DNA of 58,686 bases from positions 1 through 58,686 of the IMG/VR virus record IMGVR_UViG_3300045988_070061. One strand, written 5' to 3'. The notes beneath the pieces are model-generated. The model was not told the origin of the DNA, did no database searches, and worked only from the letters and a program-made list of their open reading frames with translations. Positions within the stretch are counted from its first letter, which is position 1. The number at the start of each line of letters is the position of its first letter. The translations under genes and the position numbers were made by a program. This DNA comes from a virus. This document shows, piece by piece, positions 21,662 through 57,552 of the stretch.

Positions 21662-22948
21662 ATGGCAGACACATTTGCAATGAGTGGAAACACTCCTAAT
21701 TTTAGCGGTATGCTTTTTAACAAAGGTAATACCAAGACACCATTTTCGACAATGATTGGTGCGCACAGAAAATTTACAAATCACACAGAATTCGTAACAG
21801 GACAGGAATATGAGACAGCGGAAGGATCTCAGCCAAATATTTCGGAAGCTGAATCATTGACAGCGCCGGATGCATCTGTTCTGAAAAGAGATCAGAAGAC
21901 AAATGTTACTCAGATTTTCCAGGAAAGCGTTGGAATTTCTTACGGAAAGATGTCTAACATGGGAACTCTTTCAGGAATTAATGTTGCAGGACAGCAGGCT
22001 AATCCAGTTAGTGAAGAAGATTTCCAGATTGCTGCTAAAATGGCTAAAATCGGGCAGGACATTGAGTACACATTCCTTAACGGAAAATATCAGAAGTCAA
22101 CAGGTGACAATGTTCCGAATAAATCAAGAGGTCTCCTTACTGCAATTGAATCAAATATCGTTGATGCAGATGGAAAGATGCTTTCGTTTATGCTACTGTG
22201 CGAAGCTATGAAGTGCATTGATGATTCTAACGGAGATACAACAAACCTTGTAGTAGGGCTTGATTCTACCGGAAGATTACAGCTGAATGCCGATGCAGCA
22301 GCTAACGGATTAACAATCGTGAGTGCCGGAAGAGATATCAATGGTATTGCAGTGGATCAGGTACTTACACCGCTTGGAACTGTATATCTTAAGACTCTGA
22401 AATATCTTCCAACGGGAACAGTTGCATTGTTTGACCCATCTATCATGGCACCGGTTGAACAGATTGTACCGAAAAAAGGAAACTTCTTCCTTGAAGAACT
22501 TGCAAAAGTCGGTGCAGGAACAAAGAAACAGATCTTCGGACAGATTGGTCTTGATCACGGCCCAGAATGGTATTCAGCAAAGATTACTAATCTGAGCATG
22601 AGAACACCACACGATGAAGATATGGCAAGACGCTATGTACAGGTAAGTGCCAGTGCGCCGGCTGAACTTGGAACGCTCACAGTACAGTCAGCAGCTGGAA
22701 CAGCTGTGGGAGCAACAAAACTGACTGTAACACCTGCACTCACTTCCGGAAATTCTTATAAATATAAAGTGTCCGATGAAGAGACTAAAGTTGAAGCTGG
22801 ACAGAATGTTCGTGTTTGGAAGTCTTGGGACGGTAAGTCAGATATCGTAGCAGAGAGTGGAAAACATATCATCGTTGCTGAATGCGACAAGAACTATGAG
22901 GTTTTAAAGGCCGGAAGTACAACGGTAACTGCAAAAGCCGAAGGTTAA
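21662..22948 (+). CDS. Major capsid protein with a C-terminal Ig-like extension
   Basis: 428 aa in the expected position. The C-terminal ~90 aa are beta-rich (LTVQSAAGTAVGATKLTVTP...), like Ig-like decoration domains. Confidence 0.7.
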   Translation: MADTFAMSGNTPNFSGMLFNKGNTKTPFSTMIGAHRKFTNHTEFVTGQEYETAEGSQPNISEAESLTAPDASVLKRDQKTNVTQIFQESVGISYGKMSNMGTLSGINVAGQQANPVSEEDFQIAAKMAKIGQDIEYTFLNGKYQKSTGDNVPNKSRGLLTAIESNIVDADGKMLSFMLLCEAMKCIDDSNGDTTNLVVGLDSTGRLQLNADAAANGLTIVSAGRDINGIAVDQVLTPLGTVYLKTLKYLPTGTVALFDPSIMAPVEQIVPKKGNFFLEELAKVGAGTKKQIFGQIGLDHGPEWYSAKITNLSMRTPHDEDMARRYVQVSASAPAELGTLTVQSAAGTAVGATKLTVTPALTSGNSYKYKVSDEETKVEAGQNVRVWKSWDGKSDIVAESGKHIIVAECDKNYEVLKAGSTTVTAKAEG

Positions 22949-33491: not shown

Positions 33492-33858
33492 TTACATAAA
33501 TATCGCAGATTATAATCGTATTATCGGGAACATTGCTTATCTGCATGATTTACAGCAAGAGTTATATAAACCTGTTCCATATACGGAATTAGCAGAAAAG
33601 ACGGTAAGTGATTATCCGTATGCATGGGAATTTAATGCCATCGAAAGTTTTTTGAATGCATTAAGCGATAATACATTTCCTTTTGCGAATTATGAACGTG
33701 GGTACTGGATAGACAATGGGCCCACGCCAACGTATGATGATTTGAATCGAATAGAAAGTGCTTGTCTCGCTTTCTATAAAGGATATAACCGGCAGAAACT
33801 TACACAGCAGAAATTACCTATCACTTTTGGGGTAAATCAATCTGCTATAAAATGTTAG
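33454..33858 (+). CDS. Tail fibre-associated protein
   Basis: AGGAGGA RBS. N-terminal WQEPKTDWSADDYINIADYNRIIGNIAYL motif common in Firmicute phage fibre proteins. Confidence 0.45.
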   Translation: MWQEPKTDWSADDYINIADYNRIIGNIAYLHDLQQELYKPVPYTELAEKTVSDYPYAWEFNAIESFLNALSDNTFPFANYERGYWIDNGPTPTYDDLNRIESACLAFYKGYNRQKLTQQKLPITFGVNQSAIKC

Positions 33859-33870
33859 GAGGAAAACAAC

Positions 33871-34473
33871 ATGGCATACACACCATTATCCACTGATTTT
33901 AAAGACCAAATACTTTCTGATGTTAATGCTCAGAGGAAGTATAAACAGACTGTAAATGAAGACGGTACAGTGTCTCTGCGAGATATGACGGCATACGATC
34001 AGGAAGGTAGTACATATTCTGCAAAGGACATTAATGAGGAACGAAAAGCAATAAATGATATCTACGCAAACAAAGTAGTTAGTCTGGATGAGGCAAGTCT
34101 TGTTACAGAACCAGGATTCTTCTGTGATGCACTGGTAATCAATGAAATAAATAAGAGTTTGACAGATAAAATAAATACAGTTAAAAATATAAACAAGAAC
34201 ATAACTAAGATGATAGGCGGATCAAAAGTTGTAACCGCAAAAGCCGGCACATCTGTACAGGTATTTACTAATTCTGAGATAAATAAAGCGCTTGGCGTAA
34301 CTAACTCTTCTAATGCAAACACAGTGGTATTAATGACTAACGGCGATGGTCTTGCTCAAAAAGTGCATGTAGAAGGCAGTACCTACTTAAACAGCGCATG
34401 GCATGCAACGTTTAATCAGAATGCTTCTGCTGGTAGCATTAGAATAAATTATGTAATATTCTATTTTGGATAA
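33871..34473 (+). CDS. Tail fibre / receptor-binding candidate
   Basis: 200-aa ORF, beta-rich C-terminus. Confidence 0.4.
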   Translation: MAYTPLSTDFKDQILSDVNAQRKYKQTVNEDGTVSLRDMTAYDQEGSTYSAKDINEERKAINDIYANKVVSLDEASLVTEPGFFCDALVINEINKSLTDKINTVKNINKNITKMIGGSKVVTAKAGTSVQVFTNSEINKALGVTNSSNANTVVLMTNGDGLAQKVHVEGSTYLNSAWHATFNQNASAGSIRINYVIFYFG

Positions 34474-34512
34474 TTAGTTATAATTCTGCGACACAGACAA
34501 AAAGGAGAAAAT

Positions 34513-35193
34513 ATGAATATATTATTTTTAAATCAATCAGAAACGGTTACAGCAACTGTAAAGAAATTAAGTGTACACCTTATCGAGATAACCGGGACAG
34601 AACCAAATACATCCGGTTTTCACCTACTGAATAATGCTGGTAATGTATTTGGAAAATATGATGGGTTCACAACATTATACCGTGAACTGGAAGATGGATT
34701 TATTCTTTCTGACGATGGAAGTGTATATGTTGAACCGATTGAACCGGAACCAGAGCCAGAACCGGAAATCAGTCTTGATGAAGTGAAAGAAGCTAAGGTC
34801 GCAGAGATGAACGACATACAGCAGAAGCTCATAGCACAGGGAGTTGATGTTACTCTGTCTGATGGCAGTAAAGAACATTTCTCATTGACTGAGCGTGACC
34901 AGACTAGCCTTGTTGGGTTACAGGCACAGGTCGCAATCGGAGCTGAGAATATTCCTTGGCATACTTCCGATGAAGATGAACACTGCAAATTCTACAGCAA
35001 TGCAGATATGGCAAAAATCACTTCGTCTGCACTATCCTATGTGACATGGCACGTGACTTATTTCCGTGACCTCCGCATTTTCATTCGTTCTCTGGAAAGC
35101 AAAGAAGAGGTTGAACAAGTTACCTACGGAATGAATATTCCAGAAGCATATCAGTCTGAGCCACTGAAAGCAATGTTGGCTCAGAAATCATGA
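34513..35193 (+). CDS. DUF4376-domain protein (copy 1)
   Basis: ...HFSLTERDQTSLVGLQAQV...YSNADMAKITSSALSYVTWHVTYFRDL... Paralogous to 38408-39058. Confidence 0.55.
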   Translation: MNILFLNQSETVTATVKKLSVHLIEITGTEPNTSGFHLLNNAGNVFGKYDGFTTLYRELEDGFILSDDGSVYVEPIEPEPEPEPEISLDEVKEAKVAEMNDIQQKLIAQGVDVTLSDGSKEHFSLTERDQTSLVGLQAQVAIGAENIPWHTSDEDEHCKFYSNADMAKITSSALSYVTWHVTYFRDLRIFIRSLESKEEVEQVTYGMNIPEAYQSEPLKAMLAQKS

Positions 35194-35600
35194 AGAAGTT
35201 AAGACCGCTGATTCTGTTTGGGATTGGTGGCCTGATTTACGTGCTGATAGAGCTAATAGCAAGAGGACGTAGCCATTGGTCGATGTTCATCGTTGGTGGT
35301 TTGGCGTTCTTCCTTATTGGTTGTATCAACGAAAAATGCCGGAAGATGCCACTGGTAAGGCAGATGTTGATCGGTGCGATTGTGATTACTACATTGGAAT
35401 TTGTATGTGGTTGCATCGTGAATCTATGGCTCGGTTGGAATGTATGGGATTACAGCAATATGCCGTTCAATTTACTTGGTCAGATATGCTTACCATTTAC
35501 CGTAATATGGTTTTTCTTATCGGCAGTGGCGGTTGTCTTGGATGATTGGATAAGACATATATTGTGGGGCGAAGATATACCACATTACAAATGGAGGTAG
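35190..35600 (+). CDS. Polytopic membrane protein (CmpB / putative ABC-transporter type IV-like, 4 TM)
   Basis: 136 aa with four hydrophobic helices, WNVWDYSNMPFNLLGQICL motif, ATGA-coupled to the upstream gene. Confidence 0.5.
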   Translation: MKKLRPLILFGIGGLIYVLIELIARGRSHWSMFIVGGLAFFLIGCINEKCRKMPLVRQMLIGAIVITTLEFVCGCIVNLWLGWNVWDYSNMPFNLLGQICLPFTVIWFFLSAVAVVLDDWIRHILWGEDIPHYKWR

Positions 35601-35603
35601 CGC

Positions 35604-35936
35604 ATGAGAGTATTAAATTTTTGCGTTGATGAACAGAAAATTTCAAAAATGCCCGGATGCGATTTTAGCAATATCGCAAGAGGTAGCTCAGATTACCTCA
35701 AGGTGCATCTATCCGTATCCGATGGTTGGAGCGGATGCGCAAAGGTCGCTGAGTTCTATGATATGTTAGGGCAGCTACGTGAATCTGTTCCCGTAATCAA
35801 TAACGCCTGTACAGTTCCGGCAGTAGTAACCGGCGGTATATTGTGGGGAATCCGTATCGTAGGAGCAAAAGGGAACTACAGAATAACAACAAATAAGTTG
35901 GAGGTGATGCAATCGCGACAACAGAAGAAGCATTAG
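35604..35936 (+). CDS. Tail-tip protein, BppU-N-like (tentative)
   Basis: 110-aa beta-rich ORF with a GGAGGT RBS. Confidence 0.35.
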   Translation: MRVLNFCVDEQKISKMPGCDFSNIARGSSDYLKVHLSVSDGWSGCAKVAEFYDMLGQLRESVPVINNACTVPAVVTGGILWGIRIVGAKGNYRITTNKLEVMQSRQQKKH

Positions 35937-35944
35937 CAGCAGCG

Positions 35945-36907
35945 GTGGTCGAACCGGTCAACGACATTTTTGAAATCGACCCGGAAACCCGTGTGATTAC
36001 AGTCCCGGCATCCGAAAAGCTGTTCGGTGTAGCAAATGATGGGAACTCCGAAAGGAAGCATTTTCGATGTCCAAAAATCGTAGGGGATAACATCGACCTG
36101 TCTACGATGCACCTGTACATCAATTACCAGAATGCCAACGGGCAGAAGTATCCTTATCTGGTAGAGGACATACGGACAGATGGCGACTATATTACATTTT
36201 CGTGGCTGATCGGCCCAGATGTGGTTGCATATAAGGGACAGATTAAGTACATCGTATGCGCCAAAAAGGGAGATGGAACAATTCCGGAATGGAATACCAC
36301 CCTTGCAGAAGGTACTGTACTGGAAGGTCTGGAAGCTACAGATGAGGTGGTGAAACGAAATCCGGATATCATCGAACAGATCTTGACAAGACTTGATAAC
36401 GTAACAGAAATCCCACAGGAAAAGGTAACAGAAGCGGTATCTACCTATATGGAAGCGAATCCAATTAATGTGCCGAAAAACTTATCTGACCTAAAAGAAG
36501 ATGCGGAACACCGTACCGTTACAGATAAAGAGAAACAGTCGTGGAATAACCGACAAGCACTAACAATCACATATGGCGGTAAAACTCACGTCTATGATGG
36601 CAGTGAAGCCATTGCCATCACCATAGAAACAGGCGGTATAGAGCGTATCGAAAAACTTGCTACAGACACCACAGTAACCTTAGAGCCTAACAAACTCTAT
36701 GTATTCCCGGAAATGACATCATTAACCTACACCATCGGAGAGGGAACGGGAGAGATCCATTTTATTTTTAAAAGCGGTGCAACAGCAACAAGAGTAGTGC
36801 ATCCAGCCGGTGTAAATATCGGGAGCTTTACGGTAGATGCTAACAAAATCTATGAGGTGTCGATTCTTGAGGGCTTGCTGACGAGCCAGAATTGGAGCGT
36901 GAGCTGA
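35945..36907 (+). CDS. Baseplate upper-protein-like adaptor (tentative)
   Basis: 320 aa with a GTG start. The N-terminal pattern (VPASEKLFGVANDGNSERKHFRCPKIVGDNIDLS...) recalls BppU-N-type domains. Confidence 0.4.
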   Translation: MVEPVNDIFEIDPETRVITVPASEKLFGVANDGNSERKHFRCPKIVGDNIDLSTMHLYINYQNANGQKYPYLVEDIRTDGDYITFSWLIGPDVVAYKGQIKYIVCAKKGDGTIPEWNTTLAEGTVLEGLEATDEVVKRNPDIIEQILTRLDNVTEIPQEKVTEAVSTYMEANPINVPKNLSDLKEDAEHRTVTDKEKQSWNNRQALTITYGGKTHVYDGSEAIAITIETGGIERIEKLATDTTVTLEPNKLYVFPEMTSLTYTIGEGTGEIHFIFKSGATATRVVHPAGVNIGSFTVDANKIYEVSILEGLLTSQNWSVS

Positions 36908-37386
36908 TGAAACGTAGAAGAATATTAGGGAGTGAGGCAGAAAGTATGATAAATGAAGAGTTTGAATTATTAGGCGAAATTGATGTGTCAAATTTTGCAT
37001 TTGTAAATTCTGTTATGTTTGAAAAGACCTGTGACTGCTCAGAACTGTTGTTGATATGGACAGATATGGAAAATTCGACTAATACAGATTCTGCGGTTAT
37101 GGTAAAGATTAATGATATTGCGGCAGATTGTGGAGCACCTAGAACATCTAAGAAAGGAAGCAAAAAGAACGGATATACATTATATAAATGTTTGAACGGG
37201 TGCGGAACAATATCAGTATCTCATACCGGAGCTGGTAGCAAAACAATGTATAGTGGCAATGCAGGGAATGTTATGATTCCTTACAATTTGATGCCGATTG
37301 CGGAGAAATTTAGGAAAATAAAAATCTACAACGGTGGAACACAATATTATGCAACATCTGGCACTATAAAAGTTTACGGGAGGTAA
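36907..37386 (+). CDS. Small tail-tip paralog 1 (MKRRRILGSEAE...), no repeat tract
   Basis: Its ATG overlaps the upstream stop (TGATG). 159 aa. The N-terminal RRRxL motif is shared with the next two genes. Confidence 0.55.
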   Translation: MKRRRILGSEAESMINEEFELLGEIDVSNFAFVNSVMFEKTCDCSELLLIWTDMENSTNTDSAVMVKINDIAADCGAPRTSKKGSKKNGYTLYKCLNGCGTISVSHTGAGSKTMYSGNAGNVMIPYNLMPIAEKFRKIKIYNGGTQYYATSGTIKVYGR

Positions 37387-37392
37387 GTTGAC

Positions 37393-37521
37393 ATGAAATA
37401 CAGAATAACACACAATCTTGTCAGTCAGTCAGTCAGTCAGTCAGTCAGTCAGTCAGTCAGTCAGTCAGTCGATGATACTGTAGCTGATTCACTCTTGTCA
37501 AGAACGGCGGTGACGATATGA
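37393..37521 (+). CDS. 42-codon leader ORF containing the (GTCA)n tract
   Basis: GGGAGG lies 9 nt upstream of ATG 37393. The TGA at 37519-37521 overlaps ATG 37518 (ATGA). Confidence 0.4.
   Translation: MKYRITHNLVSQSVSQSVSQSVSQSVDDTVADSLLSRTAVTI
37420..37470. repeat. Perfect tetranucleotide repeat (GTCA)12 + GTC
   Basis: 51 nt counted directly. Confidence 0.95.
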
Positions 37522-37976
37522 GCCGCCGGAGAATGATGCTTATGAATGGACAGGAGGAGAATGAGATGAAAGAATGGAAAACATTAGATACCGTTGTTCT
37601 GAAAGAAGATGCGAAAACTATTACAGTCAAAATTCCAGATGCAAATGAAATAACAGTACTATTCTGGGGGAGAGAGAACAACGGTGATGATAGCATTAGT
37701 GGCACAGGAGTGGGGTCTGATGGACTAAGAATAAATGATAAAGGAGTATCAAATTATCCATTGACATATCTGAGGAAAGCAGGAAGTGAATATTATACAA
37801 AGATTACAGCGGAAATTATAAATGGATTTTTGGATGGAACAATATCAAAAAAAGGAAATAATGAACTTGTAGGATTTCAAAATCTTTTGACGAATGTAGA
37901 ATCCATAAAAGAAATATCGCTCGTTACGAACAATTTATTCAAAACAGGCAGTAAAGTAACGGTATTATATCGTTAG
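37518..37976 (+). CDS. Small tail-tip paralog 2 (MSRRRMMLMNGQEENE...)
   Basis: 152-aa ORF with a weak SD of its own, start coupled to the leader ORF. Confidence 0.55.
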   Translation: MSRRRMMLMNGQEENEMKEWKTLDTVVLKEDAKTITVKIPDANEITVLFWGRENNGDDSISGTGVGSDGLRINDKGVSNYPLTYLRKAGSEYYTKITAEIINGFLDGTISKKGNNELVGFQNLLTNVESIKEISLVTNNLFKTGSKVTVLYR

Positions 37977-37995
37977 ATAAGGAGTTGATGTTAAA

Positions 37996-38403
37996 ATGCT
38001 GACAGCACAGCACAGCACAGCACAGCACAGCTTAAGGCGTAGGTTGCTTAATGCACAAGAAGAAACAAACGAATGGCTATATGAAGCTTACCTAACCGAT
38101 ACTGGAGAGTGGTACGGCAAGCGGTGTCCGGCTATTGTATTCAGTGTAAAACAAGGAGAACAGTATTATATCGAATGGAGCAATGTTAGAACACAGAATA
38201 AATACATCTATGATATGCGTAGATGCGGTGGAGCGTACTTGACCTATGTTCCAAATCAGATTGCAGAATCTGGAAGCATTGAGATTGTTATTCCATCAGA
38301 CGGCACACTGTATGTCGGATGTGGTTTCAATAATAAATTTTCTCACGGTGATATCGGTGCTGCTAGCTTCGATGGAGATTATATTCGAATAAGAAAGGAG
38401 TGA
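37996..38403 (+). CDS. Small tail-tip paralog 3 (ML[TAQHS]2LRRRLLNAQEETNE...)
   Basis: 135-aa ORF. The pentanucleotide tract occupies codons 3-12. Confidence 0.55.
   Translation: MLTAQHSTAQHSLRRRLLNAQEETNEWLYEAYLTDTGEWYGKRCPAIVFSVKQGEQYYIEWSNVRTQNKYIYDMRRCGGAYLTYVPNQIAESGSIEIVIPSDGTLYVGCGFNNKFSHGDIGAASFDGDYIRIRKE
38002..38031. repeat. Perfect pentanucleotide repeat (ACAGC)6
   Basis: 30 nt counted directly, inside the 5' end of the 37996-38403 CDS. Confidence 0.95.
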
Positions 38404-38407
38404 TTAA

Positions 38408-39058
38408 ATGCACGCAAAATTACAAAACGGGTGTATTCGGAGTGCACCCAAAACCATTACTTTGGATGGAAAAACAATCAACAATCCGCTCCAGGAAGAA
38501 CTGGAACAGTTAGGATATAAACAGGTGGTGTACACAGATATGCCTGCTGAGGTGACGGATGGCAAGCACTGGGAATCGGAGTGGACGGAGGAAGAGAATG
38601 CGATTAGGCAGGTGTGGACACTGGTAGACGATTACGACTTAGAGCAAATCAGAACTCTTAAGAAAAGTGAAATTTCAGATGCTTGCGAACAGACAATTTA
38701 TAATGGAATTGATGTTGAAATGTCTACAGGAACACAACACTTCTCTCTCACCGAAAAAGATCAGATCAATATATTCGGATTACAAGCAACTATTGAATCC
38801 GGTGAAACACAGATTGAATATCACAGTGATGGCAATCCTTGTATATACTATAGTGTTGAAGATATTCAGAAACTAATTGCTGCTGCAATGGGATTCGTAA
38901 AATATAATACTACATATTGCAATAGCTTAAATGTATGGATTAGCAAAGAAACGAATGCGCAGACAATTAGTGAAATGTATTATGGAATGGAAATTCCAGA
39001 AGAACATCAATCAGAAGTTCTTAAGAACTATATTAGAATTAAAACAAAAGATTTGTAA
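38408..39058 (+). CDS. DUF4376-domain protein (copy 2)
   Basis: ...QHFSLTEKDQINIFGLQATIESGE...YSVEDIQKLIAAAMGFVKYNTTYCNSL... Paralog of 34513-35193. Confidence 0.55.
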   Translation: MHAKLQNGCIRSAPKTITLDGKTINNPLQEELEQLGYKQVVYTDMPAEVTDGKHWESEWTEEENAIRQVWTLVDDYDLEQIRTLKKSEISDACEQTIYNGIDVEMSTGTQHFSLTEKDQINIFGLQATIESGETQIEYHSDGNPCIYYSVEDIQKLIAAAMGFVKYNTTYCNSLNVWISKETNAQTISEMYYGMEIPEEHQSEVLKNYIRIKTKDL

Positions 39059-39182
39059 AAGATGGCGGTATTTTTTACTGCTGTCTTTTTTATTATATAA
39101 ACAGATGGAGGAAACATATGGATATCAGAGCGGGCCCGCAAGGTCTTTTTTATACATATTTTGAGAAAGAGAGACGGAAACA

Positions 39183-39485
39183 GTGAAAGAGTTTTTGATA
39201 AATACTTATACGATAGTTCTTCCTATAGCACTGGGATATATTGTCTGGCTGTTAAAAAATCAGAAAAGAGACAGGGATGCCAACAGCAAAGGAACGATGC
39301 TTTTACTTCGTGTACAGTTGATTGAATATCATAGCAAGTATATGCAGATGGGTGATATCCCGTCTTATGCTTATGAAAATTTCTGCGAGATGTACGAAGC
39401 ATATCATGCGCTCGGTGGAAATGGAATGATAACTAAAATGATGCATGAAATTGAAGAATTGCATTTAAAAAAGAAAGGTGATTAA
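39183..39485 (+). CDS. Membrane-anchored protein of the lysis cassette
   Basis: 100 aa with a GTG start and an N-terminal TM helix, directly upstream of the holin. Confidence 0.4.
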   Translation: MKEFLINTYTIVLPIALGYIVWLLKNQKRDRDANSKGTMLLLRVQLIEYHSKYMQMGDIPSYAYENFCEMYEAYHALGGNGMITKMMHEIEELHLKKKGD

Positions 39486-39487
39486 CT

Positions 39488-39781
39488 ATGGAACAGATTA
39501 TGAATTATGTAAAACCGGAACTGGTAGTAGTGGCAGTTGTACTGTACTTTGTTGGAATGGGGCTGAAACAGTCACAGGCCGTGACAGATAAATATATTCC
39601 GTTGGTTCTTGGAATCATTGGAATTGTGATTTGTGGAATCTACGTGATTGCAACCTGTAGCCTGTCTGGTATGCAGAATATTGCAATGGCGGTATTTACA
39701 GCAGTGGTACAGGGCGTGCTTGTAGCCGGATTAAGTACATATGTGAATCAGATTTTTAAACAGCTTAATAAAGAAGAATAA
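39488..39781 (+). CDS. Holin
   Basis: 97 aa. The pattern VKPELVVVAVVLYFVGMGLKQS...DKYIPLVLGIIGIV...GVLVAGLSTYVNQIFKQ is typical of Firmicute phage holins. Confidence 0.75.
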   Translation: MEQIMNYVKPELVVVAVVLYFVGMGLKQSQAVTDKYIPLVLGIIGIVICGIYVIATCSLSGMQNIAMAVFTAVVQGVLVAGLSTYVNQIFKQLNKEE

Positions 39782-39830
39782 GAGGGTGAGAAATCATCCT
39801 CTTTTTTAATAGATGAAAGGAGAACTCATT

Positions 39831-41440: not shown

Positions 41441-41500
41441 GCATTTATATTGAACATACAAAAGCCCCGAAAGCATTGATTTTCCGGGGCTTTTTTGCTA
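41405..41500. other. Predicted attP region
   Basis: The gene fragment diverges from the MiaB pattern at ~41420, and the serine integrase gene ends at 41498. The crossover core is not identified. Confidence 0.35.
41462..41497. terminator. Bidirectional terminator
   Basis: AGCCCCG/CGGGGCT stem flanked by A-run and T-run, between convergent genes. Confidence 0.6.
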
Positions 41501-43216
41501 TCTGTATAATAATGTGTGGGTTAATCCATTCTTGAAAACAATCTCTGTAATATGCCTGTCCATAACTGTGATATGGTCAATAATGGAGTTCATAAGTGTT
41601 TTCATTGCTTCTTCATCCATCATTGCGAGTTCGGAATACTCTATATTCCCACCACTGTTAATTTTGTGCGAGATAAGGAATTGAGATGCGGACTTAATGA
41701 ATGCTGCCTGATCAACATTTTCTGAGATAGAAGATGAGTCTAGGCTCTTAATGCTATTTCCCAATTTCACCTTATCAACCTCTAATTTTGTTTTCATTTC
41801 AAGAAATTCTTTTTCGTCCATTGCATCATCATCGAAGAGGTATGCCTTTTTCAATCGCTCCAAAGCACGATCTGTTTTTTGGAGTTTTTCTTGCAGCTCT
41901 TTTTTCTTTTCCGCTGTATCAGTATTTTTACCATCTTTACTAACTGGTTTACCAGATAAAGTTTCTGTACCGGAACGACCATATAGCAAATCAATTGTAT
42001 CCTGTAAGCTTGATTCAGATATTCCGGCCACGTCTGTGAAATCAATATGAGAGAGTATAACTCTTTCCAATGATTCAGTATCTTTGATGAATCTCCTACT
42101 TTTAGATGCATCAATAATAGCTGCTATATAATTTATCATGAACGGACCAATCTTTACATCGCTGACATTCAAGTTATCGCAATGTTTTTTCTGGTACTTG
42201 CCGGTGCAAGCGTAAGATGATGGTCTGAATCCATTTCCTCTACGCCCATCTTTGGATGTTACTTGATAGTTTGAGCCACATTTTCCACAAACTATTAATC
42301 CGGCAAATACATTACATCTTTTTCGTATCGGGTGGAAAGCAGAAGTATTTCTCTTTTTGCAATTCATATCCATCCTACGGTTGACTTCATTCCATATTTC
42401 GGGATCAACCAAAGGTGGAAATACGCCATCCATATAGATAACTTCTTCATCAGATTTTCTTTTGCCTCTTGCACTTTCCCTATAGTTGTAGCGATAGTCG
42501 CCTTTATTGATCGGATTCCGCAGAAAATCAGCAACAGTCTTAGATGTCCATTCGCCACCTCGCTTGGTCGGAATGTTATGAGAGTTATTATAATCCCGGA
42601 TAGTAACAGATGAACCACCGTCCAAATACATCTGGTACATGGCTTTAGCATAAGGAGCTTCTTTCTTGGAATGTACGGGGCGTTTATTTTCTTCGTCCCA
42701 GTCCCAACCGTAAGGAACTCTTGCGCCATTCCATTGTCCGCTTTGCGCTCTGCCTATCATTACGTCTGTAACACGCTCAGACGTCAATTTACGCTCTAAT
42801 TCGGCGAACACCAGTATAATCTTAAGCATAGCTTCCCCCATTGCGCTAGATGTATCAAATTGCTCGTTCAGCGAGATGAATGTAACATCATTGCGCTTGA
42901 AATTATCATACATAATAGAAAAATCTACCAAGTTACGTGAGATACGATCTATTTTATATACGATCACATGAGACACAAGTCCGGCTTTTACCTTTTCCAT
43001 CATTCGCTCAAATGCCGGACGTTTGGTGTTCTTGCCAGATTTACCTGCATCCTCAAATATTTCAATTCGTTTTTTATCAATGTGTAGCACGTGTTCGCAA
43101 TATGCTTTCAATTCCTTTTTCTGGAATGGAAGAGAGTCTTTGTCGACCTGATATCCTGTTGATACACGGACATACAGTGCCACTATTTTTTCTTTCTGAT
43201 TCGTCATTTTATTCAT
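41498..43216 (-). CDS. Large serine recombinase (integrase)
   Basis: 572 aa. VALYVRVSTGYQ catalytic-serine motif, resolvase domain, recombinase domain, CGKCGSNY zinc ribbon, coiled coil. Confidence 0.9.
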   Translation of the reverse strand: MNKMTNQKEKIVALYVRVSTGYQVDKDSLPFQKKELKAYCEHVLHIDKKRIEIFEDAGKSGKNTKRPAFERMMEKVKAGLVSHVIVYKIDRISRNLVDFSIMYDNFKRNDVTFISLNEQFDTSSAMGEAMLKIILVFAELERKLTSERVTDVMIGRAQSGQWNGARVPYGWDWDEENKRPVHSKKEAPYAKAMYQMYLDGGSSVTIRDYNNSHNIPTKRGGEWTSKTVADFLRNPINKGDYRYNYRESARGKRKSDEEVIYMDGVFPPLVDPEIWNEVNRRMDMNCKKRNTSAFHPIRKRCNVFAGLIVCGKCGSNYQVTSKDGRRGNGFRPSSYACTGKYQKKHCDNLNVSDVKIGPFMINYIAAIIDASKSRRFIKDTESLERVILSHIDFTDVAGISESSLQDTIDLLYGRSGTETLSGKPVSKDGKNTDTAEKKKELQEKLQKTDRALERLKKAYLFDDDAMDEKEFLEMKTKLEVDKVKLGNSIKSLDSSSISENVDQAAFIKSASQFLISHKINSGGNIEYSELAMMDEEAMKTLMNSIIDHITVMDRHITEIVFKNGLTHTLLYR

Positions 43217-56517: not shown

Positions 56518-57552
56518 ATGTATATACAAGAAGATGACATGAAACTAAATGACTGGCAGTTCGCACAAAGAAAATACCTGCCATACGAAACGAAACTACG
56601 GCTCACAGAAACCCGTATAAGAGAATGGCATTACAACTGGGCGGGGCAAGTGTATTTAAGCTATTCTGCCGGACTTGATAGCACGGCGCTATTACATATG
56701 ATCCGAAAAATATTAGGAAATGATGTCCCGGCTGTCTTTTCTAACACAGGTTTAGAATTCCCTGAAATCGTGAGATTCGCAAGAAAAGCACCGGGAGTGT
56801 TTGAAGAAATCTATCCGAGAGATAAAAACGGCAAAAGGATCACTTTTAAACAAATTGTGGATCAGCACGGTTTCCCGCTGATTTCGAAAGAAACGGCAAT
56901 GAAAATTGAAAAGTTGAGACACGGGAAGTTGAGTGAGAGGTATCGCAATTATTTGCTGAATGGTGATGAACGAGGGAAATTTGGTATGCTCCCTAAAAAG
57001 TGGAGATTTTTGCTTGATGTTGAATTCGATACATCTCAGAAATGTTGCGACAAGATGAAAAAGAAGCCGTTTAAGGAATATGAAAAGATGACTGGAAGAA
57101 AGCCATATATAGGCACAACACAGGATGAGGGATTCATGCGAGCGCATCTATACGCAAGCACAGGTTGTAATGTGTATGACGGGAATAAAATCAAGTCGCA
57201 GCCATTAGGATTCTGGAACAGACAGGATGTATTAAGATACGTGGTCGAAAATGATGTAGAAATATGCTCTGTGTACGGAGATATTAAGCAAGACCAGCAA
57301 GGTAACTATTATACGACAGGGGAACAACGGACAGGATGTATGTTCTGTGGATTTGGAGCGCACCTGGAAGAAGAGCCAAACAGATTCCAGAGAATGTCCG
57401 TAAAACATCCGAAATGTTATGAAATCTGCATGAACCTTGAAAGCAACGGGGTGAAGTATAAAGATGCGTTAGAAACGTGCGGAATTGGTACAGAAACATG
57501 GGAGAAGATGGGACAAATGGATATATTTGATTTTATTGGAGGTATGCAGTGA
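56518..57552 (+). CDS. PAPS-reductase family protein (PP-loop ATPase) with a C-terminal Cys cluster
   Basis: VYLSYSAGLDSTALLHM PP-loop and a C-terminal RTGCMFCGFG. The start is uncertain (56518 or 56539). Confidence 0.65.
   Translation: MYIQEDDMKLNDWQFAQRKYLPYETKLRLTETRIREWHYNWAGQVYLSYSAGLDSTALLHMIRKILGNDVPAVFSNTGLEFPEIVRFARKAPGVFEEIYPRDKNGKRITFKQIVDQHGFPLISKETAMKIEKLRHGKLSERYRNYLLNGDERGKFGMLPKKWRFLLDVEFDTSQKCCDKMKKKPFKEYEKMTGRKPYIGTTQDEGFMRAHLYASTGCNVYDGNKIKSQPLGFWNRQDVLRYVVENDVEICSVYGDIKQDQQGNYYTTGEQRTGCMFCGFGAHLEEEPNRFQRMSVKHPKCYEICMNLESNGVKYKDALETCGIGTETWEKMGQMDIFDFIGGMQ

What the first reader, a model, noticed from the sequence alone, without database searches (positions are those of the whole stretch)
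37393..37521. Perfect (GTCA)12.75 tract inside a leader ORF that is stop-start coupled to a tail-tip gene: candidate slipped-strand expression switch in a phage
Seen in the sequence:
- There are 51 nt of uninterrupted GTCA (=AGTC) repeats at 37420-37470.
- They lie in a 42-codon ORF with ATG 37393 and GGGAGG 9 nt upstream.
- In the present repeat count this ORF ends at TGA 37519-37521, overlapping ATG 37518 of the next gene (ATGA).
- The downstream gene has only a weak Shine-Dalgarno sequence of its own.
- Adding one unit moves leader termination to TGA 37485. Removing one moves it to TAG 37481. Both are 31-37 nt upstream, which breaks the coupling.
- The downstream frame cannot be fused to the leader, because there is an in-frame TGA at 37485.

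Established: tetranucleotide tracts of this unit and length are classical contingency loci in bacteria, for example AGTC in Haemophilus mod genes.

Inference: translation of the 152-aa tail-tip protein is switched or tuned by repeat length. The known phage tail-diversification routes are invertases and DGRs, and I am not aware of an SSR-based one.
Basis: partly seen in the sequence, partly recalled or inferred. Interest (0 to 1): 0.82.

Follow-up and report, generated by a model that had tools for sequence, protein, structure and literature searches.

The report
Repeat-driven switches for phage fibre tips
A gut phage carries hypervariable 4- and 5-base repeats just upstream of small tail-fibre tip genes, so gaining or losing one repeat unit probably turns each tip protein on or off.

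Summary
(GTCA)12.75 lies at 37420-37470 inside a 42-codon leader ORF whose stop overlaps ATG 37518 of a 152-aa gene.

The tract is hypermutable. Eleven contigs encoding the identical 152-aa protein carry 4.75 to 15.75 units. Four of them have flanks identical to the window.

It is one of a family of switches. The next gene (37996) has (ACAGC)6 in frame, and at least 59 related junctions in gut phages use GTCA, ACAG or ACAGC.

In the leader type, two reading frames stop right after the repeat. The third always ends on the start codon of the downstream gene.

A conserved two-helix RNA structure buries that start codon and a strong internal ribosome-binding site. It shows compensatory changes between sequence classes.

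The controlled proteins share an N-terminal RRR motif. gp152 matches the C-terminal tip domain of a collagen-like tail fibre; the other bodies are unrelated in sequence.

Best reading: slipped-strand phase variation of fibre-tip modules, acting through leader-ORF translational coupling. The effect on expression is inferred, not shown.

Repeat-based variation of phage receptor-binding genes is already known for polyG tracts. I therefore rate this a new variant, not a new kind.

The parts
35945..36907 (+). 320-aa fibre base protein. Its N-terminal ~155 aa form the anchor domain shared with long tail proteins of other phages.
   Evidence: 49% identity to the N-terminus of the collagen-like fibre P0018. 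tblastn hits to the N-terminus of FP_oengus gp64 'tail protein' and a 661-aa Dulem virus 36 protein.
36907..37386 (+). gp159, first tip-type gene (MKRRRIL...). It has no SSR. Its ATG overlaps the stop of the 320-aa gene (TGATG).
   Evidence: Sequence read; N-terminal RRR motif shared with gp152.
37378..37383 (+). Shine-Dalgarno GGGAGG of the leader ORF, 9 nt before ATG 37393.
   Evidence: A GGAGG-type SD is present before the leader ATG in the related loci.
37393..37521 (+). Leader ORF (42 codons at the present repeat count). Its stop TGA 37519-37521 overlaps ATG 37518.
   Evidence: Public gene calls record leaders of 38, 42 and 46 aa on contigs with other repeat counts.
37420..37470 (+). (GTCA)12.75, the hypermutable tract that sets the leader reading frame.
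   Evidence: TRF. 19-63 nt on contigs encoding the identical gp152. 16-84 nt across 37 distinct junctions.
37473..37487 (+). Stops for the two uncoupled frames: TGA 37473 and TGA 37485 (reached by +1 or -2 units), TAG 37481 (reached by -1 or +2 units).
   Evidence: Simulation. The pattern of two early stops plus one overlapping stop holds in 41 of 42 type-A junctions.
37488..37499 (+). 5' arm of the outer RNA helix (UUC-a-CUCUUGUC). It is an anti-SD that pairs with 37549-37559.
   Evidence: MFE and centroid folds, z = -3.46, 0 of 200 shuffles as stable. Covariation CG:9/GC:5 and AU:8/CG:4, 87.9% of cells paired against 31-50% with slid partners.
37505..37528 (+). Inner GC hairpin: CGGCGGU 37505-37511 pairs with GCCGCCG 37522-37528. 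ATG1 37518 and the leader stop sit in its loop.
   Evidence: 5-6 of 6 arm pairs in all 31 distinct junctions. Arms differ between classes (CGGCGG/CCGCCG against UGCCGU/ACGGCG).
37518..37976 (+). gp152, a fibre-tip module. The N-terminal adaptor MSRRRMMLMNGQEENEMK is predicted disordered. An all-beta sandwich follows from about residue 20.
   Evidence: AF2 pLDDT 79.7. 36% identity to the C-terminal domain of the collagen-like fibre P0018. BFVD hits to larger uncharacterised siphovirus proteins and to collagen-repeat/Stf-repeat proteins.
37549..37568 (+). 3' arm of the outer helix (GACAGGAGGAG), which contains the strong internal SD GGAGGAG 37553-37559, plus the in-frame ATG2 at 37566.
   Evidence: SD plus ATG or GTG is conserved in type-A junctions and absent from in-frame (type-B) junctions.
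37996..38403 (+). gp135, second SSR-controlled tip-type gene. ATG-CTG-(ACAGC)6 is fused in frame to LRRRLLNAQEETNEW.
   Evidence: One unit more or less truncates the ORF to 13-14 aa. Homologues carry variable TAQHS repeat numbers at the N-terminus.
38002..38031 (+). (ACAGC)6, an in-ORF contingency tract.
   Evidence: TRF. 30, 30, 90 and at least 60 nt on contigs whose sampled GTCA/gp152 flanks (37120-37976) are identical to the window. 24-75 nt across relatives.
37388..37416 (+). Promoter-like TTGACA-17-CACAAT ending 3 nt before the SSR. Role unexplained.
   Evidence: 34 of 39 junctions score at least 10/12, against 1.25% of background windows.
37472..37501 (-). Promoter-like TTGACA-18-TATCAT on the minus strand, facing into the SSR. 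Its -35 box is the conserved TGTCAA motif. Role unexplained.
   Evidence: 11-12/12 in class A1, varying only at -10 positions 3 and 4.

Best explanation
The GTCA tract is a slipped-strand contingency locus carried by a temperate siphovirus-type phage of gut Clostridia. It changes by whole units during replication, and each change shifts the reading frame of a short leader ORF that has a strong Shine-Dalgarno.

**Coupled frame (one in three; the state in this window).** Ribosomes read about 50 nt past the repeat. They pass through an anti-SD segment and the 5' arm of a GC hairpin, and terminate at TGA 37519, on top of ATG 37518. This opens a two-helix RNA lock and allows termination-reinitiation at ATG1. 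It may also allow initiation at the unmasked internal SD and ATG2 (37566).

**Other two frames.** Ribosomes stop at TGA 37473 or TAG 37481, upstream of the lock. The lock stays closed and gp152 is made poorly or not at all.

**What gp152 is.** It is a detachable tail-fibre tip, a lectin-like beta sandwich with a short RRR-containing N-terminal adaptor. It is one of three tip-type genes that follow the fibre-base gene.
- gp159 is coupled to the base gene and has no repeat.
- gp152 is switched by GTCA through the leader.
- gp135 is switched by an in-frame ACAGC tract.

Independent switching would give phage populations with mixed fibre-tip repertoires, a bet-hedging of adsorption specificity.

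**Shown:** the anatomy, hypermutability, the conserved frame architecture, the conserved RNA fold, and the fibre-tip homology of gp152.
**Inferred:** the direction and size of the expression change, the use of ATG1 versus ATG2, virion incorporation, and receptor binding.
For: **1. Hypermutability**
- The identical gp152 protein is found with 19, 27, 31, 39, 47, 51, 51, 55, 55, 55 and 63 nt of GTCA.
- The window, L120, L121 and L126 have no mismatch in 806 flanking nt, yet carry 51, 19, 63 and 55 nt.
- L004 and L005 differ over 8456 bp by 2 mismatches plus both SSRs, and their predicted states are reciprocal.
- 17 SSR copies are cut by contig ends.

**2. Frame architecture**
- 41 of 42 distinct leader-type junctions have two early stops and a third-frame stop at +1 (ATGA) or +4 (ATGTTGA, ATGTTAA, ATGCTAA) of the downstream ATG.
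- The leader ATG varies in position (offset 5, 8 or 11) but always keeps the same frame.

**3. Sibling in-frame junctions**
- The same kinds of repeat are fused directly to L-RRR-LL, with immediate stops in the other two frames.
- Predicted proteins carry variable numbers of the repeat-encoded peptide.

**4. RNA lock**
- The same two-helix MFE fold appears in 10 of 10 representative junctions, z = -2.9 to -5.3.
- 31 of 31 junctions keep both helices.
- Compensatory changes and a coordinated 2-nt insertion in both outer arms distinguish the two classes.
- In constrained folding, only the present-frame ribosome opens the hairpin around ATG1.

**5. ATG1 is a real start**
- RRRMM is kept through synonymous codon changes, and also in genes without the hairpin.

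**6. Tip identity**
- The gp152 fold occurs as the C-terminal domain of longer proteins. One is P0018, which has the window's fibre-base N-domain, then collagen repeats, then a gp152-like domain.

**7. No other diversification system was found in the window**
- No reverse transcriptase or small invertase among the 30 larger ORFs scanned, and no long inverted repeats across 33800-39200.
Against: - No expression data exist; everything is in silico.
- The strong internal SD and ATG2 at 37566 could support translation of a slightly shorter gp152 whatever the repeat phase.
- In equilibrium folding, SD2 exposure differs only modestly between ribosome positions (P unpaired 0.16-0.54).
- The coupled frame is found in 20 of 42 distinct junctions. 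That is not significantly different from the neutral one third (p = 0.07).
- The structural covariation rests essentially on two sequence classes, so it reflects few independent events.
- Near-consensus promoter-like boxes on both strands flank the SSR and are not explained by this model.
- The tip and receptor-binding role rests on homology to a fibre C-terminal domain and on weak lectin-like fold matches (PDB TM 0.3-0.4).
- The gp135 model is poor (pLDDT 56.6).
Confidence: 0.62

Rival explanations
1. The repeat is hypervariable but functionally silent for gp152. The gene is translated from its own signals (SD2 and ATG2 at 37566, or ATG1) whatever the leader frame. The leader and SSR would then be a tolerated microsatellite in an intergenic spacer.
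For: - GGAGGAG with 6-nt spacing to ATG 37566 is a textbook initiation site, conserved in type-A junctions.
- ON:OFF among assemblies is close to what drift would give.
- SD2 exposure in equilibrium folds is not strongly frame-dependent.
Against: - Drift does not explain why 41 of 42 junctions keep two immediate stops plus a third-frame stop exactly on the start codon, across diverged sequences.
- It does not explain why the leader keeps an SD and a fixed frame.
- SD2 is paired to a conserved, covarying anti-SD.
- Homologous genes place the same repeats in frame, where the phase must matter.
Confidence: 0.15
2. The tract acts at the DNA or transcription level. It lies between two convergent sigma-A-type promoters: a plus-strand one with its -10 box 3 nt upstream of the repeat, and a minus-strand one with its -35 box in TGTCAA. 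Tract length would tune transcriptional interference or antisense RNA, not the reading frame.
For: - The two best promoter-like matches in 35500-39800 flank the SSR (10/12 and 11/12).
- 34 of 39 junctions score at least 10/12 upstream, against 1.25% of background windows.
- The class A1 minus-strand -10 box varies only at its least-constrained positions.
- TGTCAAG is conserved although it is read in different frames in the two classes.
Against: - The total number of promoter-like hits in the region is not above shuffled expectation (10 against 13.8).
- A plus-strand start site inside the SSR would remove the start codon of the in-frame (type-B) genes.
- The window's own second cassette has lost the -35/-10 spacing yet keeps an intact in-frame ORF.
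- A length-based mechanism does not explain the frame-specific stop architecture.
Confidence: 0.1
3. The repeats and their conserved flanks (the leader, and the RRR adaptor with the lock) serve mainly as homology junctions for swapping tip cassettes between phages. Frame effects would be incidental.
For: - The identical gp152 gene sits behind different upstream genes, with 176-192 of 300 upstream nt differing, and the break lies at the leader/SSR.
- Hybrid junctions exist, such as GTCA or ACAG tracts running into CAGCACAGC-TTAAGG.
- The same body family occurs behind different repeat units, and at least 17 body families share one adaptor.
Against: - Recombination does not need perfect, long, stop-free tracts, leader SDs or frame-specific stops.
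- Copy number varies between otherwise identical haplotypes with no cassette exchange.
- This role is compatible with the switch model rather than an alternative to it.
Confidence: 0.1
4. The tract and its length differences are assembly or sequencing artefacts.
For: 17 SSR copies lie at contig ends, so assemblers struggle with them.
Against: Perfect tracts with intact unique flanks occur at the same position in dozens of independent assemblies from different projects and assemblers, including contigs longer than 100 kb.
Confidence: 0.01

Closest known systems
Hypermutable polyG tracts in receptor-binding protein genes of Campylobacter Fletchervirus phages (Sorensen et al. 2021, Cell Rep 35:109214; cited)
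   Same: - Phage-encoded simple-sequence repeats.
- They sit in genes for host recognition.
- They generate subpopulations with different receptor-binding repertoires.
   Different: - Those are 7-11 nt homopolymers inside the ORF.
- Here the tracts are 16-90 nt tetra- and pentanucleotide arrays.
- They control small detachable tip genes.
- One type acts from a separate leader ORF through stop-start coupling and an RNA lock.
- Several cassettes per genome are switched independently.
Tetranucleotide contingency loci of Haemophilus influenzae and Neisseria (mod AGTC/AGCC, lic1 CAAT, hgp CCAA); from established knowledge
   Same: - Same repeat class. AGTC is a rotation of GTCA.
- Similar tract lengths.
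- Three-phase ON/OFF logic through slipped-strand mispairing.
   Different: - Those are bacterial chromosomal genes with the tract inside the coding region.
- Here the carrier is a temperate phage.
- At 37420 the tract is in an upstream leader ORF that cannot fuse to the gene.
Homopolymer contingency loci in T2/T4 and other coliphages (Gomez, Barrick, Waters, bioRxiv 10.1101/2025.10.21.683753)
   Same: The concept of phage contingency loci as bet-hedging.
   Different: - Those are repeats of 6 nt or more scattered through many genes.
- They are reported as under-represented in tail-fibre genes.
- Here the arrays are long and dedicated, placed at the 5' junction of fibre-tip cassettes.
Invertible tail-fibre segments (Mu Gin/G segment, P1 Cin) and diversity-generating retroelements (BPP-1 Mtd); from established knowledge, cited
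   Same: Programmed, reversible diversification of the distal tail-fibre specificity within one phage lineage.
   Different: - None of the 30 larger window ORFs scanned against Pfam is an invertase or a reverse transcriptase.
- No long inverted repeats lie across the fibre/tip region 33800-39200.
- Variation here is by repeat-unit slippage that toggles translation.
Translational coupling through RNA structure opened by an upstream ribosome (for example MS2 coat/replicase and lysis genes, or ermC-type leader control); from established knowledge
   Same: - The downstream start and SD are sequestered in a helix whose 5' arm lies in an upstream ORF.
- The stop and start overlap.
   Different: Here a hypermutable repeat decides, heritably and stochastically, whether the upstream ribosome reaches the lock. 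In those systems the decision is made by physiology or by a drug.

Membership tests
SSR contingency locus (slipped-strand phase variation) | Long perfect tandem array of a 1-9 nt unit | tested here: met
   (GTCA)12.75 with 100% matches, and (ACAGC)6.
SSR contingency locus (slipped-strand phase variation) | The tract is placed so that whole-unit changes alter a reading frame or promoter | tested here: met
   Simulated changes of 1-3 units cycle the leader stop between 37519, 37473 and 37481, and truncate gp135.
SSR contingency locus (slipped-strand phase variation) | Copy number is polymorphic among otherwise (near-)identical genomes | tested here: met
   19-63 nt with the identical gp152 protein, and four contigs with zero flank mismatches. 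L004 and L005 differ by 2 SNPs over 8.4 kb plus both SSRs.
SSR contingency locus (slipped-strand phase variation) | High-frequency, reversible switching within a clonal population | not testable with these tools
   No read-level data are available. Contig breaks at 17 SSR copies are only suggestive.
SSR contingency locus (slipped-strand phase variation) | A measurable ON/OFF phenotype | not testable with these tools
   Needs reporters, proteomics or adsorption assays.
Translational coupling by termination-reinitiation | Overlap or close proximity of the upstream stop and the downstream start | tested here: met
   ATGA at 37518-37521. The stop lies at +1 or +4 in 41 of 42 related junctions.
Translational coupling by termination-reinitiation | The downstream initiation site is weak or occluded on its own | tested here: met
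   ATG1 sits in the loop of a 7-bp GC hairpin nested in an anti-SD:SD helix. z = -3.46 for the window and -2.9 to -5.3 for relatives, with covariation.
Translational coupling by termination-reinitiation | Downstream expression depends on upstream translation | not testable with these tools
   Needs leader-ATG and stop-codon mutants.
Phage tail-fibre distal (receptor-binding) module | Homology to, or a shared fold with, a fibre C-terminal domain | tested here: met
   gp152 residues 18-151 are 36% identical to the C-terminal domain of P0018, which carries collagen repeats and tail-fibre PHROG hits. BFVD matches reach TMq 0.64.
Phage tail-fibre distal (receptor-binding) module | Genomic position in the tail-fibre block next to the fibre shaft or base gene | tested here: met
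   The gene lies after the tape measure and the 320-aa fibre-base gene, and before the holin and endolysin.
Phage tail-fibre distal (receptor-binding) module | Presence in virions and binding to a host receptor | not testable with these tools
   No proteomic or binding data. The PDB fold matches to lectin or CBM domains are weak.
Diversity-generating retroelement or invertase shufflon | Reverse transcriptase with TR/VR pair, or a small invertase with inverted-repeat crossover sites | tested here: not met
   No RVT or invertase Pfam hit among the 30 larger window ORFs scanned; the smaller ORFs were not scanned. The only recombinase is a 572-aa large serine recombinase at 41498-43216. No long inverted repeats lie in 33800-39200.
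Known RNA family (Rfam) | Match to a curated covariance model | tested here: not met
   No hit with E of 1 or less in 36800-38500.

The most novel reading that the evidence does not exclude
Temperate gut-Clostridia phages may carry a dedicated combinatorial phase-variation system.
- It would draw on a library of at least 17 unrelated small tip-type modules, of which only gp152 has direct fibre-tip homology. All share one N-terminal docking adaptor.
- Each module would be toggled independently by its own tetra- or pentanucleotide tract.
- One switch type would be a previously undescribed riboregulatory design: a hypermutable leader ORF decides whether ribosomes reach and open a conserved anti-SD and hairpin lock over the tip gene's start sites.
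- The same repeat strategy also reaches a PAPS-reductase-family gene in related phages. That would give these phages a small 'phasome' like that of Haemophilus or Campylobacter.
Probability: 0.45. Interest if true: 0.88.

Novelty: new variant of a known kind. Interest (0 to 1): 0.8.

Why it matters
**For phage biology.** Phage host-range plasticity is usually ascribed to invertases, DGRs or ordinary mutation. The only documented SSR route uses polyG tracts in Campylobacter phages. This would add a widespread, easily recognised switch in uncultured gut phages, and it is directly testable: one can count repeat alleles in reads and correlate them with hosts.

**For phase variation generally.** It offers a new regulatory design, in which an SSR in a leader ORF gates a translational lock.

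**For metagenomics and annotation.**
- It explains why assemblies of these phages break at the fibre region.
- It explains why gene callers disagree on the starts of these genes.
- It warns that a single consensus genome misrepresents the tip repertoire of a phage population.

**For phage therapy and microbiome engineering.** Such phages would escape receptor-loss resistance at high frequency.

Tried and rejected
- **Leader-gene fusion in another phase.** Rejected. The downstream frame is closed by TGA 37473 and 37485 here, and by early stops in 41 of 42 relatives.
- **ATG 37566 as the only true start, with 37518 spurious.** Rejected as the sole reading. RRRMM is conserved through synonymous changes, and also in genes lacking the hairpin.
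- **SSR as the -35/-10 spacer of one promoter.** Rejected. TTGACA and any downstream -10 box would be more than 75 nt apart.
- **DGR or invertase.** None found.
- **Known RNA family.** None found.
- **MAFFT plus RNAalifold on full junctions.** This recovered only the invariant helix core because the arms were misaligned. I replaced it with anchor-extracted arms.
- **DNA-level and gp152 protein searches of GenBank phages.** No match.
- **Pfam and PHROG on gp152, gp135 and gp159.** Nothing found.
- **PDB fold search.** Only weak lectin-like hits, not used for assignment.
- **gp135 structure.** Too poor to search with.
- **Host identification.** The genome-collection scan gave only three MAG hits: Lachnospiraceae, Oscillospiraceae and Eubacteriales. 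The host is unresolved beyond gut Clostridia.
- **Enrichment of the coupled frame over one third.** Not significant.
Full report
**1. The observation**

- TRF finds a perfect period-4 array at 37420-37470: 12.8 copies, 100% matches.
- The array lies in a 42-codon ORF, 37393-37521. GGGAGG (37378-37383) ends 9 nt before its ATG.
- The ORF's TGA (37519-37521) overlaps ATG 37518 of a 152-aa ORF as ATGA.

Simulating unit changes gives the following:

| Unit change | Leader stop |
|---|---|
| 0, +3 or -3 | TGA 37519 (overlaps ATG 37518) |
| +1 or -2 | TGA 37473 |
| -1 or +2 | TAG 37481 |

That is a second stop in the same frame. No phase can fuse the leader to the gene.

- A strong internal initiation site lies in frame in gp152: GGAGGAG 37553-37559, then ATG 37566.
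- A second perfect tract, (ACAGC)6 at 38002-38031, lies immediately after the ATG (37996) of the next ORF.

These two tracts are the only SSRs of 4 or more copies in the whole window.

**2. Context**

The window is a temperate siphovirus-like phage. It encodes:
- an SPP1-type portal, an SU10-type capsid protein and a 1482-aa tape measure;
- a large serine recombinase at 41498-43216 on the minus strand;
- a CHAP/PG-binding endolysin.

Its only relatives among cultured or GenBank phages are distant. They include Faecalibacterium phage FP_oengus and the Enterocloster phages.

The SSRs lie in the tail-fibre block, between the tape measure and the lysis genes.

**3. Hypermutability**

*Relatives in IMG/VR.* Related contigs carry the same tract at the same place with 5.25-17.25 units. 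They also carry ACAG or ACAGC tracts at the neighbouring gene.

*Contigs encoding the identical protein.* This is the decisive test. Looking up contigs that encode exactly the window's 152-aa protein gave ten more assemblies from different samples. Their GTCA tracts are 19, 27, 31, 39, 47, 51, 55, 55, 55 and 63 nt.

Three of them (L120, L121, L126) have no mismatch to the window in 300 nt upstream and 506 nt downstream. They nevertheless carry 19, 63 and 55 nt against the window's 51. Their ACAGC tracts are 30, 90 and at least 60 nt against the window's 30.

*L004 and L005.* These come from different metagenomes. They differ over 8456 bp by two substitutions and the lengths of both SSRs, and their predicted states are reciprocal.

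*Other signs.* Seventeen SSR copies are truncated by contig ends. Seven flank haplotypes occur with more than one tract length. Five type-A flank haplotypes are seen in both ON and OFF states.

**4. A family of switches with two architectures**

Across about 130 fetched loci I found 59 distinct complete junctions. Every one lies just upstream of a protein whose N-terminus reads RRR-[ILM][LM]...QEE..EW.

*Type A (the finding).*
- Order of elements: an SD and leader ATG, then (GTCA)n or (ACAG)n, then stops in two frames within a few codons.
- The third frame stays open for 40-55 nt. It ends at +1 (ATGA) or +4 (ATGTTGA, ATGTTAA, ATGCTAA) of the protein's own ATG.
- 41 of 42 junctions show exactly this pattern, although the sequences fall into two diverged classes.

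*Type B (the window's gp135).*
- The leader ATG and the repeat are fused in frame to L-RRR-LL.
- TTAAGGCGTAGG supplies stops at +1 and +8 in the other two frames.
- 17 of 18 junctions fit this pattern.

*Further points.*
- Database proteins of the gp135 family have N-termini with different numbers of the repeat-encoded TAQHS peptide. Some have a GTCA-encoded VSQS leader, and some start directly at M-x-RRR.
- The leader ATG sits at offset 5, 8 or 11 from a fixed point 32 nt before the repeat, so it is always in the same frame.
- All three repeat units are stop-free on the coding strand.

In type B the phase necessarily decides whether the protein is made. Type A leaders are homologous to type B leaders. 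The repeat's purpose is therefore most simply the same in both.

**5. The RNA lock in type A**

Folding the region between the early stops and ATG2 gives the same two nested helices in every junction tested.

*In the window:*
- The outer helix pairs 37488-37499 (UUC-a-CUCUUGUC) with 37549-37559 (GACAGGAGGAG). The 3' arm includes the whole internal SD.
- The inner hairpin pairs CGGCGGU 37505-37511 with GCCGCCG 37522-37528. ATG1 and the leader stop sit in its loop.

*Statistics and conservation:*
- Ten representative junctions have z-scores of -2.9 to -5.3. Between 0 and 2 of 200 dinucleotide shuffles fold as well.
- All 31 distinct junctions keep 8-10 contiguous outer pairs and 5-6 of 6 inner pairs.
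- The two sequence classes differ by compensatory changes. The outer helix is CCUGUC/GACAGG in one class and CCUGUGUC/G(A/G)CACAGG in the other, a coordinated 2-nt insertion in both arms. The inner helix is CGGCGG/CCGCCG in one and UGCCGU/ACGGCG in the other.

*Formal count on anchor-extracted outer arms:*

| Measure | Observed | Control |
|---|---|---|
| Cells paired | 87.9% | 31-50% with slid partners |
| Pairs changed on both sides | 2 (CG:9/GC:5 and AU:8/CG:4) | - |
| Covariation score | 0.200 | 0.069 in shuffles (0 of 500 reach it) |

The caveat is that only two classes exist, so the independent events are few.

MAFFT with RNAalifold on the raw junctions recovered only the invariant core. 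No Rfam family matches.

*Constrained folding:*
- A ribosome terminating at 37473 leaves both helices intact. One terminating at 37481 leaves the inner hairpin intact but disrupts the outer helix.
- Only the present-frame ribosome opens the hairpin around ATG1.
- Exposure of SD2 differs only modestly at equilibrium. Unmasking of ATG2 is therefore a kinetic inference.

**6. Which start codon**

ATG 37518 is a real start. RRRMM is kept between classes through synonymous codon changes. The same motif occurs in gp135, and also in gp159, where it is encoded by CGT AGA AGA with no hairpin.

gp159 starts at ATG 36907, which overlaps the stop of the 320-aa gene as TGATG. It therefore uses the same stop-start design without an SSR.

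The internal SD and ATG2 are conserved in type A and absent from type B. They may yield a shorter isoform lacking the adaptor.

**7. What the controlled proteins are**

*Direct family searches.* Pfam and PHROGs give nothing for gp152, gp135 or gp159.

*Structure of gp152.* AlphaFold2 predicts a disordered N-terminal ~20 residues followed by an all-beta sandwich (pLDDT 79.7).

*Remote homologues.* An exhaustive HMMER search shows this domain at the C-terminus of longer proteins. P0018 (438 aa) is the informative case:
- Its N-terminus is 49% identical to the N-terminal 155 aa of the window's 320-aa protein.
- Collagen triple-helix repeats with tail-fibre PHROG hits follow.
- Its C-terminal domain is 36% identical to gp152 residues 18-151 and starts at the conserved EW.

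*Supporting observations.*
- The same N-domain heads the 693-aa FP_oengus 'tail protein' and a 661-aa protein of Dulem virus 36.
- BFVD fold matches are to larger uncharacterised siphovirus proteins. They also include collagen-repeat, lambda-Stf-repeat and ConA-like proteins, with TMq up to 0.64.
- PDB matches to lectin or CBM domains are weak.
- The gp135 model is all-beta but of low confidence.
- gp159, gp152 and gp135 share only the adaptor.
- Across relatives, at least 17 unrelated body families of 95-177 aa sit behind the same adaptor and switch.

I conclude that gp152 is a detachable tail-fibre tip module. By shared adaptor and position, its neighbours probably are too. Virion incorporation and receptor binding remain untested.

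**8. Mechanism proposed**

1. Slippage changes the tract by whole units.
2. In one phase of three, leader-translating ribosomes traverse the anti-SD and hairpin and terminate on ATG1. This permits reinitiation and transiently exposes SD2.
3. In the other two phases they stop upstream of the lock, and the gene stays poorly translated.

In the window both switched genes are in the permissive phase.

Among distinct junctions the permissive phase is seen in 20 of 42 type A and 5 of 17 type B. Neither differs significantly from one third. That fits stochastic switching but does not prove function.

**9. Rivals**

- *Silent microsatellite, with gp152 translated from SD2/ATG2.* Not excluded, but it does not explain the frame-specific architecture or the covarying anti-SD.
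- *A transcriptional role.* This is raised by an unexpected finding. Near-consensus promoter-like boxes flank the SSR on both strands, facing inward.
  - On the plus strand, TTGACA-17-CACAAT ends 3 nt before the tract.
  - On the minus strand, TTGACA-18-TATCAT uses the conserved TGTCAA as its -35 box.
  - 34 of 39 junctions score at least 10/12 upstream, against 1.25% of background windows.
  - A start site inside the SSR would be unproductive for type-B genes. The window's second cassette has lost the spacing. I leave this unexplained.
- *Recombination junction.* Supported as an additional role. The identical gp152 gene sits behind different upstream genes, with the break at the leader/SSR, and hybrid junctions exist.
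- *Artefact.* Excluded by the many independent assemblies.

**10. Comparison and novelty**

What is already known:
- SSR contingency loci are classical in bacteria. AGTC in Haemophilus mod is a rotation of the same unit (established knowledge).
- In phages, SSR variation of receptor-binding genes is known for polyG tracts in Campylobacter Fletchervirus phages (Sorensen 2021, cited).
- Homopolymer contingency loci were recently described in T2/T4, where they are reported as under-represented in tail-fibre genes.

Seven full-text searches found no description of tetra- or pentanucleotide switches in phage fibre genes, or of an SSR-bearing leader ORF gating a translational lock.

I therefore rate it a new variant of a known kind. 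It is well supported as a hypermutable, architecture-conserved switch. The expression and phenotype steps remain to be shown.

Noticed in passing
window 37996-38403 (SSR at 38002-38031): A second contingency tract, (ACAGC)6, lies in frame at codons 3-12 of the next gene (gp135). One unit more or less truncates the ORF to 13-14 aa. It is 30-90 nt on contigs whose GTCA/gp152 flanks (37120-37976) match the window exactly.
   Followed up: yes
window 37388-37416 (+) and 37501-37472 (-): Convergent, near-consensus sigma-70/sigma-A promoter-like boxes flank the GTCA tract and face into it. Both are conserved across relatives. The minus-strand -35 box is the conserved TGTCAA motif, which is read in different frames in the two junction classes, so it is conserved at the nucleotide level. 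Its function is unknown.
   Followed up: partly
L101, L102 (4560-5810), L105, L106, L110, L111: In other IMG/VR phages an (ACAG)n tract with the same 5' flank (TTAAAATCCTA) lies inside a PAPS-reductase-family ORF (PF01507). It is in frame in L102 and truncating in L101 and L105. The window's PAPS_reduct ORF (56518-57552) has no SSR. Repeat switches in this phage group are therefore not confined to fibre genes.
   Followed up: partly
window 36905-36909: The stop of the 320-aa fibre-base gene overlaps the start of gp159 (TGATG). gp159 carries the same RRR adaptor, plus an internal SD-like GGGAGTGAGG followed by ATG (M14). This mirrors the internal start in gp152.
   Followed up: partly
window 37553-37568: A strong internal SD (GGAGGAG) and in-frame ATG2 lie 16 codons into gp152. 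They could produce an adaptor-less isoform. Public gene callers place the start of gp152 homologues at several different ATGs.
   Followed up: partly
L122, L127, L129 versus window 37120-37420: The identical gp152 gene and lock sit behind a different upstream gene (176 aa instead of 159 aa; 192 of 300 nt differ). The leader/SSR is therefore also a mosaic recombination boundary.
   Followed up: partly
window 35190-35600: A 136-aa membrane protein (PF06541, ABC_trans_CmpB-like; phrog_20274) is embedded between two fibre modules. It is conserved at the same place in the related prophage L055.
   Followed up: no
window 34513-35193 and 38408-39058: Two paralogous DUF4376 proteins (226 and 216 aa) have similar C-termini (direct repeat D2). 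Each closes one fibre module.
   Followed up: no
window 21662-22948: The SU10-type major capsid protein carries a C-terminal S-layer SbsC-like domain (PF18316). It may be a decoration domain.
   Followed up: no
L052 5563-5643; L053 4638-4653; L054 667-682: A rumen Lachnospiraceae MAG contig ends inside a (GTCA) tract of at least 20 units behind a different leader (MKRRIIL). Two other MAGs have only (GTCA)4 in an unrelated context.
   Followed up: no
window 37528-37550 and 37556-37578: An imperfect 23-nt direct repeat (74% identical, GGAGAATGA...GAATGGA) suggests that the ATG1-proximal and ATG2-proximal segments arose by a local duplication.
   Followed up: no
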